A DNA stretch of 64,000 bases from Saccostrea echinata (lineage: Eukaryota). The notes under the pieces were generated by a model. It was not told the origin of the DNA, made no database searches, and worked only from the letters and a program-made list of their open reading frames with translations. Position numbers and translations under genes: made by a program. The stretch spans positions 1,054,001 to 1,118,000 of the forward strand of contig NW_026889765.1 of NCBI RefSeq assembly GCF_033153115.1, read 5' to 3'. Below are positions 10,322-19,949 of the stretch, one piece after another (within the stretch, counting starts at the first letter, position 1; each line of letters starts with the position of its first letter).

Positions 10322-13300
10322 CTGACAATATACTATTTGTAAATACTGAAATGCATAAACAGTAAATCTCTGACATAATTGATTAATTTTTTCACGAAAA
10401 AGGTAAAGTACCTTATCTCTTCTGGTTATGAAGGGTTTAATATAAGGTAACTTTTTATAGTCTTTGAACTGCATTTGTTTTGCAAGATGATCTGTCTCCA
10501 TCTCGATCGTCATTGAGCCTTTGTATTAATATTAGCGCCATTCCAATGATCGTTGTACTTACGTCGTTCAAAGGGAGATCATTTGAGTACATCCAGAGTT
10601 ACCTTACGCAAATTTCACAAAAATACAGCTAAGCATTTGAAAGGAAAGTATAAATTCGAGATATCTAGAGGGAGGTGGTGGGATAATACATTTGAAGGCT
10701 ATTAACAGAAATTTTCTTACCCAAACAAAATACATAACATGTCATCATAATTGAAAAATTCAATTTATCATATCAGTATACTGTTGCATGATAAAAGCAA
10801 GGACTATTCATCTTCATCTAATGTACAGCTAAAACAAAGTTTTAAGCTGATCATATCAAAATCCGTCTAATGTCAGATACCCACTGCGACGAAGACAAGA
10901 TATAGCGACACAAATAAAGTTCTTACAATTTCAAAGAGGCATTGATACTGGAAATGGAATAGCATCATCGTAATGTACAAAACTGAATAATATATAAGTT
11001 AAATCATCTATTCTGGCTCCAATCATGATTCTTTCCTACCTATCCTATAATCAAGATGGGAATAAATGAAAAAAATATCCTTGATTTTTGTGCCAGTTAG
11101 TTTCATCGTGTTGTTGAATATTTTCTTCTGTATGCCCTTATCAGACTTCCGTCCAGTGTGTATGTTTCACTAAGAAGAACGAATGACAAGGTCAAACAAG
11201 AATTAATTATATATTTTCAACTACGTATTTGATTTTTCGTAACTCCCAATGAATGTCACTGTGACATATTCATACCTGGAGAGGAAGTAAAATAGTAAGG
11301 TCAACTAACTGAAAAGATTATTAAATGATGTTTATCCTATTTCATAACAATTGCAATAATAAGAGCATGTCACATAATTTAGTTGTTGAATATGACACGT
11401 CTGTAGGACCCTATCAAACTTCCGTCCAGTGCTCCAATATCACTGTGACAAATGGATGACAGGGTCTTACAGTCAGCTTCTTAAATGGTTTACAACCGAA
11501 TAGTTCAAGCTTTTTTGCATCATTATCTAATATACAGCTGAACCTCTGTTGTTGGTCGTTCTAATTTTGAATGGCCCTATCAAACTTCCGTCCAGTGTCA
11601 AATATCCACTGTGACGAAGACAAGATAGATCGACACAAAAAGGTCATGAACTCTGATGCAAAAAAAATACTTGAATATTTGTCTTGCATTCGACAATATG
11701 GCGTTGCTGTTGAATATTTCAACTGTATGCCCTTATCAGACTTCCGTCCAGTGTATCCGTTTCACTGTGACGAACGAATGACAAGGATAAACAATCAATT
11801 TGGTTATACATATATTTTTATTATTATTTTACTGTATTCCTATGTCCCCGTGAATGTCTGAATGTCATTGTTACGTACAAGCGAATAATTGGTGGAGAGG
11901 GGAAATGGTATCTAAGAGTAAACTAACTGAAATTGAACATAAATGCTTTTTTTTTTACCCAAACCGTATAACTTTTATGTCATCATCATTTAGAAGTTGA
12001 CTATTTCATGTCCGTATGATCCTATGAAACTTCCGTCCAGTGCTCCAATATCACTGTGACAAAATGATGACGGAGTTTTTCAGATGCTCATATAGTTTGT
12101 TGTTGTGTGATACAAGTTTTGGGTATTCATTTCATCTAATGCATTGCTAAAACTCGATTTGTTGATCACAATATTTTACATAACCCTATCAAACTTCCGT
12201 CCAGTGTCAGATTCCCACTGTGATGAAGACAAGATAGAGTGACACAAATAAACGTTTGTGAATTTAAAAGGTACAATGTACATTGATGTTGAGATGGGAT
12301 GGCATATTGCAATGTGCATGTGAGAAAAAGAATACTAGTAAATCCATCTATTTTGCTTCCAATCCTAATTGGGATTTTTAATCTATCCTGCAATCAAATC
12401 GAAAATACCCTCATTAAATTTTCATTATACTAGCCAGTATCACCGTTTGTTGAATATTATCTTCTGTATGCCCTTATCAGACTTCCGTCCAGTGTGTCAG
12501 TTTCACTGTGACGAACGAATGACAAGGTCAAACAACTGAAGACTTATTTTATATTTTCAACTATTTGATCACATATGATAAAGATGTTGAATACTAGTTT
12601 TTCATGTCCGTATGACCCTATCAAACTTCCGTCTAAGGCTCCATTATCACTGTGACAAATAATTGACGGGGTCTAACAGTCAGTTGTCATGTGGTTCTCA
12701 GCTGAAATATAAAAACTTTTCGTATTAATCTTCATCAAATACACAAGTAAAACTCTGTAGTTGGTCATTCTCATTTTGCATGGCCCTATCAAGCTTCCGT
12801 CCAGTGTCAAATATCCACTGTGACGAAGTCAAGATATAGAGCTACACAGAATGTTCGTAAACTCTTATGTGAAGAACTATCCTTGAATATTTCTATTGTT
12901 TTCGACGATACTACCGTGCTGTTGATTATTTTCTACTGTATGCCCTTATCAGACTTCCGTCCAGTGTATCAGTTTCACTGTGACGAACGAATGACAAGGA
13001 CAAACAAGAATCAATTTGGTTATATTTTTTATTAATTGCTTACTCAAGTTTCTGTATACCTATGTCCCTATGAATGTCTGAATGTCACTTTAACAAATGA
13101 ATAATTGGTGAAGATGGGAAATGGTAGAGTAAACTAACTGACATTGAACATAAACGATTCCTTAACCAAATGTCATCATCATTTAGAAGTTGAATATTTC
13201 ATGTCCGCATGACCCTATCAAACTTCCGTCCAGTGCTCCAATATCACTGTGACAAATGGATGACAGAGTCATATAGTATGCTGTTGTATGATAAAAGCAA

Positions 13301-17665: not shown

Positions 17666-19949
17666 TGAAAGTTCGTGAATTTCAAAGATACGCGTACAAT
17701 GTACATTGATGTTGAGATGGGATAGCAGTAAAAAAAAAAAGATTACTAGTAAATTCCAATCTATATTGTTTTTCACCTATCTTGCAATCAAAATCGAAAA
17801 AATATCACCATATTAATATTTTCACTGTGCTATCCAGTATCACCGTATTGTCGAATATCATCTTCCGTATGCCCTTATCAGACTTCCGTCCAGTGTGTCA
17901 GTTTCACTGTGACGAACGAATGACAAGGGCAAACAAGAATTAATTTGGTTATCTAACCTAACTGAAATTAAATATGAATTATATGCTTTTTCTTACCCAA
18001 ACAGAATAAATGACATGTCATCATCATTTAGACGTTGAATATTTCATGTCGGTATGACCCTATCAAACTTCCGTCCAGTGTTCCAATATCACTGTGACAA
18101 ATGTATGACAGGGTCTTACAGATGATTGCTGTTGATAAAACCAACGAGTATTTATTTTCACCTAATACACGGCTAAAACTCGGTTGTTGATCTTAATATT
18201 TTGCATGGCCCTATCAAACTTCCGTCCAGTGTCAAATATCCAATGTGACGAAGACAAGATAGAGCGACACAAATAAAAGTTCATGAATTTCAAAGATACA
18301 ATGTACATTTCATGTTGAGATGGGCGCAGTACCGTAATGAGAAATAAAATGAACACTAGTCTAGTAAACCATCTATTTTGCTTCTAGTGTAGAACCCTGC
18401 AAATCAATATCGGAATAAAGGAAAAAAATACCTTTGTTTTTTCATTGTGCTGGCCAGTATAACCGTTTGTTGAATATTTTCTTCTGTTTGCCCTCACCAA
18501 ACTTCCGTCCAGTGTGTCAGTTTCACTGTGACGAAAAAATGACAAGGTCAAACAAGAATGTTTATATTTGCCCATTTGATCAGATTTCTAGAGTTTTTAT
18601 GTAACTGTGTCGTATAAATGACAGAAAGTTAAAAAGCTGTGCAAAGGATAATTTTCATTTTTAACAAAAGAATGATTTGTAGTAAATACATCAAGATAAA
18701 AATGATTTATGGTTTTGATAACCTCTTCTTCCAGTATTTGAAATACCGATATATCTTCCCATAATATTAAATCGAAGACATTCCGAAAAAAGCTGCGAGC
18801 TTTTTTAATTAGCCAGATAAAATATTTTATTGAATTTTTTATGCCCCCACCCTTGTTTTAATGTTAAAAACCTCATTCTTCATAACATTTTAAAATATTT
18901 ATAAGACGGTTGTGGAAGGTATTATTTTGAAATTAAATATGCAGAGTTTGTTATAATCAAAGACCCCGCCCTTTCAAAATTTTCCAACGATGAAAAAAAA
19001 ATGAAATGTAGTTCAAATCTCTGAGTACTCATTAAGTCATGTCATACTTATTTTCTTTTAGCTTTGGGTTTTGATTTATCCATGTTAAAATTTATTCGCG
19101 TTCAGATTTTCGAAATAATAAATTTCAAACGTTTGGATTGAAATCTATCCGACAAAATAAATCGAACGTTGTTAGGACTTCATTATATGAATGAAGTAAG
19201 AAGCAGGCGATACATGTGTTTACAACAAAAGCCGCTAAAGAGCCATAACTAAATCTTAAAAAAAAAGAAGTTATTTGCGATATATTCACGCTGCGTTATG
19301 TGGATTTTCAAACTTGTTTCTAATTTAACACAAAACTACAGGACTTGTATAATCCTCGTTTTTCGCATTCATCACGGAAAAAACTAGATAAAAAAAGGTC
19401 ATGTACTTACTATTTTGTGTGAATTTCTATTGATTATGATAAATAAGTATACATGTATTCTTCAAGGATGGAATGAAAAACAAATTCACTCAAGAGATTA
19501 TATAGTTCTTTGATGAGTAAGAAATTAAACTACTCAAGCTCTAATTAGCTGCTTGTAATTAAATGAAAGAGGTAATAGGTACCTGGACACAACAACGAGT
19601 ACTCCAAAGGAAAGAAGATAATTGCTATGAAAACATCATGATTGCTTAATTAAGGGGATTTCATTTTCACACAATTTTGATAAAATTATCAATTATCGTT
19701 ATTAATAAAATAAAAAATTGTTAAAGAGGTAAATGGGATTTTGATTTCTATAAGTGGAGGTGATATTTGACAATTAATAAAATTTTGAAAGAAAAGATTG
19801 AAAAATAATATTCTACATTAAAGGTATAACAGAATATTAAGTTTATACTATAGTAAAGAAATTATAATGAACAATGAAAATGCCGATAATTCAATTTTAC
19901 CGTTCTCTTTATTTGAAATAAAGATGAATCGAGACAAAGTATAATTAAG

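What the first reader, a model, noticed from the sequence alone, without database searches (positions are those of the whole stretch)
11131..18556. Three hairpin subtypes in A-B-C register, with a higher-order (six-hairpin) spacer pattern
Seen: the three types share the seed but differ in the mature 3' half (A …CUGAUAAGGGC, B …UUGAUAGGGUC, C …UUGAUAGGGCC), in the loop (AAACUGACA, AUAUUGGAA, GAUAUUUGA) and in the 5p arm. The 5p differences compensate for the 3p differences (CCUUGUCA, GACCCUGUCA, GCUCUAUC). The C-to-A spacer occurs as a long form (…GTTCGTGAATTTCAAAGATAC…) or a short form (…AACTCTGATGTGAAGGGCTATCC…), mostly alternating. Inference: one hairpin triplicated and diverged under structural selection, the trimer duplicated to a hexamer, and the hexamer was amplified by unequal crossing-over.
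Basis: partly seen in the sequence, partly recalled or inferred. Interest (0 to 1): 0.7.

Follow-up and report, generated by a model that had tools for sequence, protein, structure and literature searches.

The report
Oyster miR-184 array with triplet repeats
This 7.7-kb stretch, likely from an oyster, holds 35 microRNA-shaped hairpins related to miR-184 in a repeating three-type order, and a second copy of the region in the same assembly carries nine more hairpins in blocks of three and six, so it is likely a dose-boosting microRNA cluster that grows and shrinks by unequal recombination, of a kind already reported in the Pacific oyster.

Summary
Confirmed with corrections. The minus strand holds 35 hairpins at 11.1–18.56 kb (12 A, 12 B, 11 C), plus one decayed copy at 10.84 kb. 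33 of 34 neighbours follow A-B-C. They are diverged miR-184 paralogs: 32 of 35 keep the seed, and 27 of 35 have a CNNC motif. The canonical miR-184 gene lies on another contig. The Pacific oyster has a published mir-184 array, but with one hairpin type. Trees separate A/B/C and two kinds of trimer (short or long C–A spacer). In the window, spacer alternation is not significant (7 of 10, p=0.26). A 95–99% identical copy of the region on contig C54 has 44 hairpins, shows six-hairpin periodicity (p=0.03), and differs from the window by clean 3- and 6-hairpin blocks whose junctions lie in or beside hairpins. This is near-direct evidence of unequal crossing-over. Only two base pairs change on both sides between types. 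Seeds diverge 1.7% against 14.8% in spacers. The A/B/C differences spare the seed and positions 13–16, so the three products are probably redundant. A decayed fourth hairpin type sits in the A–B spacers. Expression is untested. This is a new architecture of a known cluster.

The parts
11128..18557 (-). Tandem array of 35 miR-184-like pre-miRNA hairpins (plus-strand order ABCABCABCABCABBCABCABCABCABCABCABCA); predicted 58-nt precursors with the mature product on the 3p arm
15970..16027 (-). Example A-type precursor (mature at 15970-15991; differs from canonical miR-184 at positions 9-11 only). A copies start at 11134, 11729, 12470, 12942, 13628, 14540, 15358, 15970, 16635, 17158, 17871, 18490
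17439..17496 (-). Example B-type precursor (mature at 17439-17460). B copies start at 11407, 12018, 12614, 13211, 13909, 14075 (chimera), 14762, 15632, 16246, 16840, 17439, 18056
17599..17656 (-). Example C-type precursor (mature at 17599-17620; differs from B only at position 21). C copies start at 11573, 12182, 12782, 13338, 14237, 14925, 15817, 16405 (5p arm deleted), 17001, 17599, 18207
10842..10915 (-). Decayed 36th copy, C type, seed and stem broken; remnants of B-C and A-B spacers at about 10712-10840
14075..14132 (-). B/C chimeric hairpin: B 5p arm and loop with C-type mature 3' end and C-type 3' flank; the only break in the A-B-C register; present in both copies of the region
17252..17307 (-). 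Example of the decayed fourth hairpin type D inside an A-B spacer (others near 11217-11269, 11823-11879, 13042-13100, 13714-13771, 14622-14679, 15451-15508, 16061-16118, 16712-16769): end of 5p arm and loop kept, seed and 3p arm broken, no consistent fold
15657..15693 (.). Crossover interval 1, inside the B hairpin at 15632: informative sites switch once (51 match C54 unit 20-21, then 60 match unit 23-24); three hairpins (about 0.88 kb) of C54 are missing
17669..17681 (.). Crossover interval 2, at the base of the C hairpin at 17599: the match switches from C54 units 29-34 to units 35-40; six hairpins (about 1.28 kb) of C54 are missing
15076..15342 (-). High-copy SINE-like insertion with an 8-bp target-site duplication in a short C-A spacer; it replaces the CNNC motif of the A hairpin at 15358; present in both copies
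   Evidence: 'tRNA-derived' is my reading of A- and B-box-like motifs, ARAGORN finds no tRNA

Best explanation
The region is a tandem array of 35 diverged miR-184 hairpins that is likely transcribed from the minus strand as one long precursor and is predicted to yield three near-redundant microRNAs with the miR-184 seed, likely as an extra dose of miR-184-type repression in a tissue or stage other than adult gill. SHOWN: the hairpins, their A-B-C order, two trimer subfamilies, seed identity with the genome's single canonical miR-184 gene, CNNC motifs, low divergence of seed and stem, and 3- and 6-hairpin differences from a second copy of the region. INFERRED processing: Microprocessor crops each 58-nt precursor, helped by the CNNC motif starting 17-19 nt downstream; Dicer releases a 3p 22-mer in the canonical register; targets are those of the miR-184 seed, because A, B and C differ only at positions 12, 18 and 21. 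INFERRED history: a copy of miR-184 with changed positions 9-11 founded an array in an oyster ancestor; here it multiplied to four hairpins (A, D, B, C), D decayed, the unit duplicated into short- and long-spacer versions, and misaligned recombination at the conserved hairpin cores then added and removed blocks, mostly in register (3 or 6 hairpins), sometimes out of register (the B/C chimera, A-A junctions on C54). The register is best seen as a by-product of recombination, not of three different functions.
For: Rfam mir-184 is the best family for 18 minus-strand hairpins at E<=10, top E=3e-4; the model built from the array finds the canonical gene on C33 at 50 bits, which passes Rfam at 61 bits. 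Seed intact in 32 of 35 window and 41 of 44 C54 copies. Departure from type consensus: seed 4 of 238 (1.7%), positions 13-16 4 of 136, loop 19 of 306, spacers 484 of 3279 (14.8%) (34 hairpins, chimera left out); seed versus loop p=0.009. CNNC in 27 of 35 against 8.8% background. 90.6% of stem cells paired. Trees: A 99/94, C 100/99, B 81/33; spacers. Single switch points and extra C54 units mostly without a near-identical twin (one pair at 96%, the rest at most 92%) point to deletions in the window's lineage. Published Crassostrea gigas array hairpins carry the same A-type mature variant (PMC4138081 Table S8, compared by eye).
Against: No RNA evidence for this genome. No array hairpin reaches the Rfam cut-off (33.4 versus 54.1 bits). 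In C. gigas gill the 41 non-canonical Mir-184 entries together give about 210 per million against 109,150 for the canonical one, about 0.2% (PMC7488030 file 1; my sum; which entries are the array is inferred, the file has no sequences), and several lacked star reads. Copies are not independent, and gene conversion between hairpin cores could mimic purifying selection. 8 of 23 B and C copies look damaged (seed change, no CNNC or weak fold), 6 of them among the 10 in short-spacer trimers. B is not a well-supported clade (81/33; two changes when the canonical gene is added). Stage-specific dosage is a guess from architecture.
Confidence: 0.68

Rival explanations
1. A near-neutral, satellite-like array derived from miR-184: weakly expressed or silent, kept alike by gene conversion and unequal exchange at the hairpin cores rather than by selection on a microRNA product.
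For: Very low share of non-canonical paralogs in C. gigas gill; damaged copies, a dead D type and a SINE insertion are tolerated; copy number differs 35 versus 44; both junctions lie at hairpins, so cores do recombine.
Against: Divergence is graded by function inside a 58-nt hairpin (seed < positions 13-16 < loop << spacer), which conversion alone does not predict; three different flanks each keep a CNNC at the right distance; two double-sided pair changes keep the lower stem; the same mature variant persists in C. gigas although spacers and unit structure are unrelated.
Confidence: 0.17
2. A, B and C are functionally different: they act through their 5p strands, whose predicted seeds differ in all three types, or through 3'-end differences that change stability, and the 1:1:1 ratio is selected.
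For: 5p arms differ between types and are fairly conserved within types (32 of 374 and 22 of 408 departures); gains and losses seen between the two copies keep blocks of three.
Against: The 3p seed is the most conserved part; the 5p arm is constrained by pairing anyway; in-register exchange follows from spacer homology; the 3-hairpin block holds two A and one B, and A-A junctions and an extra B exist; C. gigas has one type only.
Confidence: 0.1
3. The 35-versus-44 difference is an assembly collapse, or C16 and C54 are a recent segmental duplication rather than two alleles; in the first case the junctions say nothing about recombination in vivo.
For: No reads could be laid on the locus; colinearity was seen over about 0.4 Mb (C16 0.70-1.10 Mb) but not at C16 0.30 and 3.0 Mb among the 40 candidates scored in each search.
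Against: The joined units are only 76% and 87.5% alike, an unlikely mis-join in an assembly with contigs of 30 and 70 Mb; each copy has its own SNPs and insertions. A segmental duplication would leave the crossover reading intact.
Confidence: 0.05

Closest known systems
Crassostrea gigas mir-184 arrays (Xu et al. 2014, PMC4138081: passages and Table S8 read, Figure S1 in a .doc file not readable; MirGeneDB names Cgi-Mir-184-P7 to P15 as listed in PMC7488030 file 1)
   Same: Tandem array of tens of hairpins in a few kb; the same derived mature variant as type A (positions 9-11 changed) and the same end of the 5p arm; separate from the single canonical gene (scaffold1832 in PMC4778033 file 2, versus scaffolds 121 and 43150).
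   Different: C. gigas scaffold121 has one hairpin type at about 128-bp spacing; here there are three types in fixed order, 125-430-bp spacing, two trimer subfamilies and a decayed fourth type whose loop matches the C. gigas loop at 8 of 9 bases (by eye). B and C mature variants were not found in the held library.
Canonical miR-184 (Rfam RF00657; this genome's gene at G000:C33:5388849)
   Same: Seed, 3p arm, positions 13-17, end of the 5p arm, CNNC.
   Different: Positions 9-11 differ in all types, 12, 18 and 21 also in B and C; array hairpins score at most 33.4 bits against a cut-off of 54.1, the canonical gene 61.
Zebrafish miR-430 locus (bioRxiv 10.1101/2021.08.09.455629, passages read)
   Same: Repeating triplets of related precursors grouped in twos or threes; two assembled alleles of different length.
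   Different: Unrelated family; there each group sits behind its own 650-bp TATA promoter and the locus spans over 500 kb. Here no spacer class has a consistently placed TATA box (0 of 6 long C-A spacers of the window), the array is 7.7 kb, and embryonic expression is untested.

Membership tests
MIR-184 family (by descent and seed) | Seed GGACGGA at positions 2-8 of a 3p mature arm | tested here: met
   32 of 35 window copies, 41 of 44 C54 copies; the 5' end is assumed from the canonical register
MIR-184 family (by descent and seed) | Homology of the precursor to the canonical miR-184 gene | tested here: met
   50, 45 and 42 of 69 aligned bases for A, B, C; the array model hits the canonical gene at E=1.7e-12
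Rfam RF00657 mir-184 | Score at or above the gathering cut-off of 54.1 bits | tested here: not met
   Best 33.4 bits; canonical control 61 bits. Not filed as Rfam members, only as diverged paralogs
Bona fide animal microRNA gene | About 60-nt hairpin with 16 or more pairs between arms and a lower stem | tested here: met
   29 of 35 with z <= -2; 6 of 35 weak or broken; 90.6% of stem cells paired
Bona fide animal microRNA gene | Microprocessor motifs (CNNC, basal UG) | tested here: inconclusive
   CNNC in 27 of 35 (met); basal UG in only 4 of 35
Bona fide animal microRNA gene | Reads from both arms, 2-nt overhangs, homogeneous 5' ends | not testable with these tools
   No small-RNA data for this genome could be examined
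Higher-order tandem repeat | Units one period apart are more alike than neighbours (three-hairpin level) | tested here: met
   33 of 34 in register; trees
Higher-order tandem repeat | A regular six-hairpin period | tested here: inconclusive
   Absent in the window (p=0.26; lag 2 equals lag 1), present but irregular on C54 (p=0.028 or 0.12; lags 2, 3 and 5 all raised)
miR-430-type promoter-dense embryonic locus | A TATA promoter in each repeat group | tested here: not met
   No consistently placed TATAWAW in any spacer class
miR-430-type promoter-dense embryonic locus | Expression at zygotic genome activation | not testable with these tools
   Xu et al. 2014 left mir-184 out of their stage tables

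The most novel reading that the evidence does not exclude
Oysters run two miR-184 systems: a single housekeeping gene, whose own locus carries a near-perfect complementary site 3.4 kb upstream (20 of 22 bases), and a fast-evolving, copy-number-polymorphic array that delivers a burst of the same seed in embryos or the germ line. The array's products carry central changes at positions 9-11 that would let them escape slicing-type or decay-type control by such sites. The triplet-of-paralogs design would then have converged on the fish miR-430 locus from an unrelated family.
Probability: 0.15. Interest if true: 0.7.

Novelty: new variant of a known kind. Interest (0 to 1): 0.4.

Why it matters
The oyster mir-184 expansion was set aside as unresolved in 2014 and counts still disagree (8 versus 44 copies, PMC9679248). 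This locus shows that the array is real in long contigs, is shaped by microRNA-type constraint, has a different architecture from the Pacific oyster's, and changes length by recombination that can be mapped to 12-37 bp. It is a compact case of how a microRNA cluster acquires higher-order repeat structure and loses members. Without expression data it remains a case study in array evolution rather than new regulatory biology.

Tried and rejected
Rfam at gathering thresholds finds no hairpin. Tandem Repeats Finder misses the array. Sequencing runs: none was listed for 11000-18700, so no reads were laid. A clean hexamer in the window was rejected. Statistical covariation was rejected as proof: the covariation score beats 500 of 500 shuffles, but that control ignores relatedness, and the count of doubly changed pairs does not exceed shuffles. 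Internal TATA promoters were not found. D as a new functional microRNA was rejected: folds are weak and inconsistent (-8.5 to -19.7 kcal/mol in the 9 window copies) and its core varies. Further array loci: none besides C16 and C54 (lower bounds); the hit on C23 and the 1-mismatch hit on C33 are not hairpins. Not held: Rosani et al. 2021 and Huang et al. 2021, which may describe bivalve mir-184 arrays further; Xu et al.'s .doc supplement could not be read. Literature searches that found no description of a three-type or higher-order mir-184 array: (open-licence library only). Earlier scan notes by place and by sequence were empty.
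Full report
What is there. A 19-base probe finds 35 hairpin cores between 11140 and 18496, all in one orientation, and one unrelated 5-mismatch hit elsewhere in the window. They fold on the minus strand: more stable than the plus strand in 35 of 35, with z <= -3 in 24, between -3 and -2 in 5, and weak or broken in 6. Types number 12 A, 12 B and 11 C; 33 of 34 neighbours follow A-B-C (shuffled mean 11.7, maximum 23 of 100,000). The exception is a B hairpin with a C-type 3' end and flank at 14075. 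A decayed C at 10842-10915 is the 36th copy. The quoted mature halves, loops and 5p arms are correct. A tree of the 35 hairpins needs the minimum of two label changes: A 99/94, C 100/99, B 81/33. Types were assigned by similarity, so the independent part of this result is their agreement with position.

What the hairpins are. Rfam mir-184 is the best family for 18 minus-strand hairpins, but the best score is 33.4 bits against a cut-off of 54.1. The genome has one canonical miR-184 on contig C33, which passes at 61 bits and is found by a model built from the array. Relative to it, A differs at mature positions 9-11; B and C also at 12, 18 and 21; B and C differ from each other only at 21. The seed and positions 13-16 are shared. 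That these two regions set targeting is established knowledge, recalled rather than looked up, and it implies near-redundant products. A CNNC motif starts 17-19 nt after the predicted cut in 27 of 35 copies (background 8.8%), in three different flanks; basal UG is present in only 4 of 35.

Constraint. Departures from type consensus are 1.7% in the seed, 2.9% at positions 13-16, 6.2% in the loop and 14.8% in spacers scored within their subclass (chimera and SINE-bearing spacer left out); seed versus loop p=0.009. Copies share ancestry, so these p-values are optimistic, and gene conversion may contribute. On 34 of 35 hairpins 90.6% of stem cells pair. Two pairs change on both sides between types and several on one side; the number of doubly changed pairs does not exceed shuffles. 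Compensation is real but amounts to about two events.

Higher-order structure. Short and long C-A spacers form two clades (100/99); B-C spacers split the same way (100/99); A-B spacers do so with one exception, the unit just left of crossover 1. C hairpins before short spacers also group weakly (81/0). So two trimer subfamilies exist. Their order in the window is not significantly alternating (7 of 10, p=0.26) and spacer 11-mers show no two-trimer period.

A second copy as a natural experiment. The assembly holds the region twice, on C16 (the window) and on C54, 95-99% identical over the 31 kb compared and colinear over about 0.4 Mb. No counterpart was seen at C16 0.3 and 3.0 Mb among the candidates scored, so allele versus segmental duplication is open; I favour an uncollapsed second haplotype. 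C54 has 44 hairpins. Window units 1-20 match C54 units 1-20 at 98-100%, 21-25 match 24-28, 26-30 match 29-33 and 31-35 match 40-44, the last three at only 84-92%. At the first offset, 51 informative sites follow C54 units 20-21 and then 60 follow units 23-24, switching inside a B hairpin (15657-15693). At the second, sites follow units 29-34, with scattered exceptions, and switch to 35-40 at the base of a C hairpin (about 17669-17681). The extra C54 units are diverged from their neighbours, so these are best read as deletions of three and six hairpins in the window's lineage. On C54 alternation is clearer (11 of 14, p=0.028 with two spacer remnants, 9 of 12, p=0.12 without) and shared 11-mers rise from 8.6 at lag 1 to 29.4 at lag 2, though lags 3 and 5 are also high. 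The hexamer is thus a frequent step in a mosaic, and the three-hairpin loss blurred it in the window.

Nine of 11 A-B spacers hold a relic of a fourth hairpin: 7 of these 9 align to A/B/C better than 98% or more of shuffles, and a profile of the relics finds the intact hairpins at E down to 7e-4. Its loop matches the Pacific-oyster array loop at 8 of 9 bases (by eye). The unit that was amplified probably had four hairpins, one already dead. Damage is uneven: all three seed changes and most CNNC losses fall in short-spacer trimers (6 of 10 B/C copies against 2 of 13; p=0.04, copies not independent, and three CNNC misses are one base outside my window).

What is known. Xu et al. 2014 (PMC4138081; passages, Table S8) reported 67 overlapping BLAST hits for mir-184 in two 4.5-kb loci of Crassostrea gigas with 14 mature types and set the family aside. 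Those hairpins carry the A-type variant but form a single type at about 128-bp spacing. PMC7488030 (passages, files 1 and 2) lists 42 Cgi-Mir-184 entries; in gill the canonical one gives 109,150 per million and the other 41 about 210 together. PMC9679248 (passages) notes counts of 8 versus 44. The organism here is inferred to be an oyster from this shared variant. The triplet design recalls the zebrafish miR-430 locus (bioRxiv 2021.08.09.455629, passages), but no repeated TATA promoter was found. I found no description of a three-type mir-184 array in the held library; two relevant bivalve surveys were not held. PMC4778033 was seen as passages and two supplement rows; papers only as a search listing and are not relied on.

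Verdict. A real, constrained array of diverged miR-184 paralogs with a three-hairpin register, an irregular six-hairpin overlay and mapped recombination junctions. The likely role is added miR-184-seed dosage in a restricted context (0.68); expression and function are untested. New variant of a known kind; interest 0.4.

Noticed in passing
G000:C33:5385462-5385483 (L012:1499-1520; L017): A site complementary to canonical miR-184 at 20 of 22 bases (mismatches at positions 7 and 22) lies 3.4 kb upstream of the gene on the same strand. Flanks show no similarity to the precursor and it is not a hairpin. Candidate self-target or decay-trigger site; array products would mismatch it at 9-11 as well.
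   Followed up: partly
window 8888-10321: A 1.43-kb palindromic MITE-like element with 23-bp tandem subterminal repeats, terminal inverted repeats and an apparent 6-bp target-site duplication; absent from the C54 copy, so a polymorphic insertion.
   Followed up: partly
window 15076-15342: SINE-like insertion inside the array, same strand as the hairpins; 5862 first-look candidates in the genome. Its internal promoter-like boxes could drive read-through into the next hairpin (untested).
   Followed up: partly
window 16600-21600 versus C54: The two copies are more diverged here (92-96% in the flank; last array units 84-92%) than on either side (mostly 99%), suggesting an older haplotype block or further rearrangement at the array's 5' end.
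   Followed up: no
window 41866-49682 (+) and 55668-56909 (-): Exons of two voltage-gated potassium-channel-like genes (BTB_2 and Ion_trans domains); the Rfam K_chan_RES hit at 49323-49436 probably reflects conserved coding sequence.
   Followed up: no
window 1194-1874 and 2116-2526 (-): Two open frames of a coiled-coil-like protein on the same strand as the array and downstream of it; no Pfam match. Whether the array lies in one of its introns is unknown.
   Followed up: partly
G000:C54:32778410-32779009 (L007): Two units with internal deletions (B joined to a long-spacer remnant; A joined to A) show out-of-register loss of single hairpins.
   Followed up: yes
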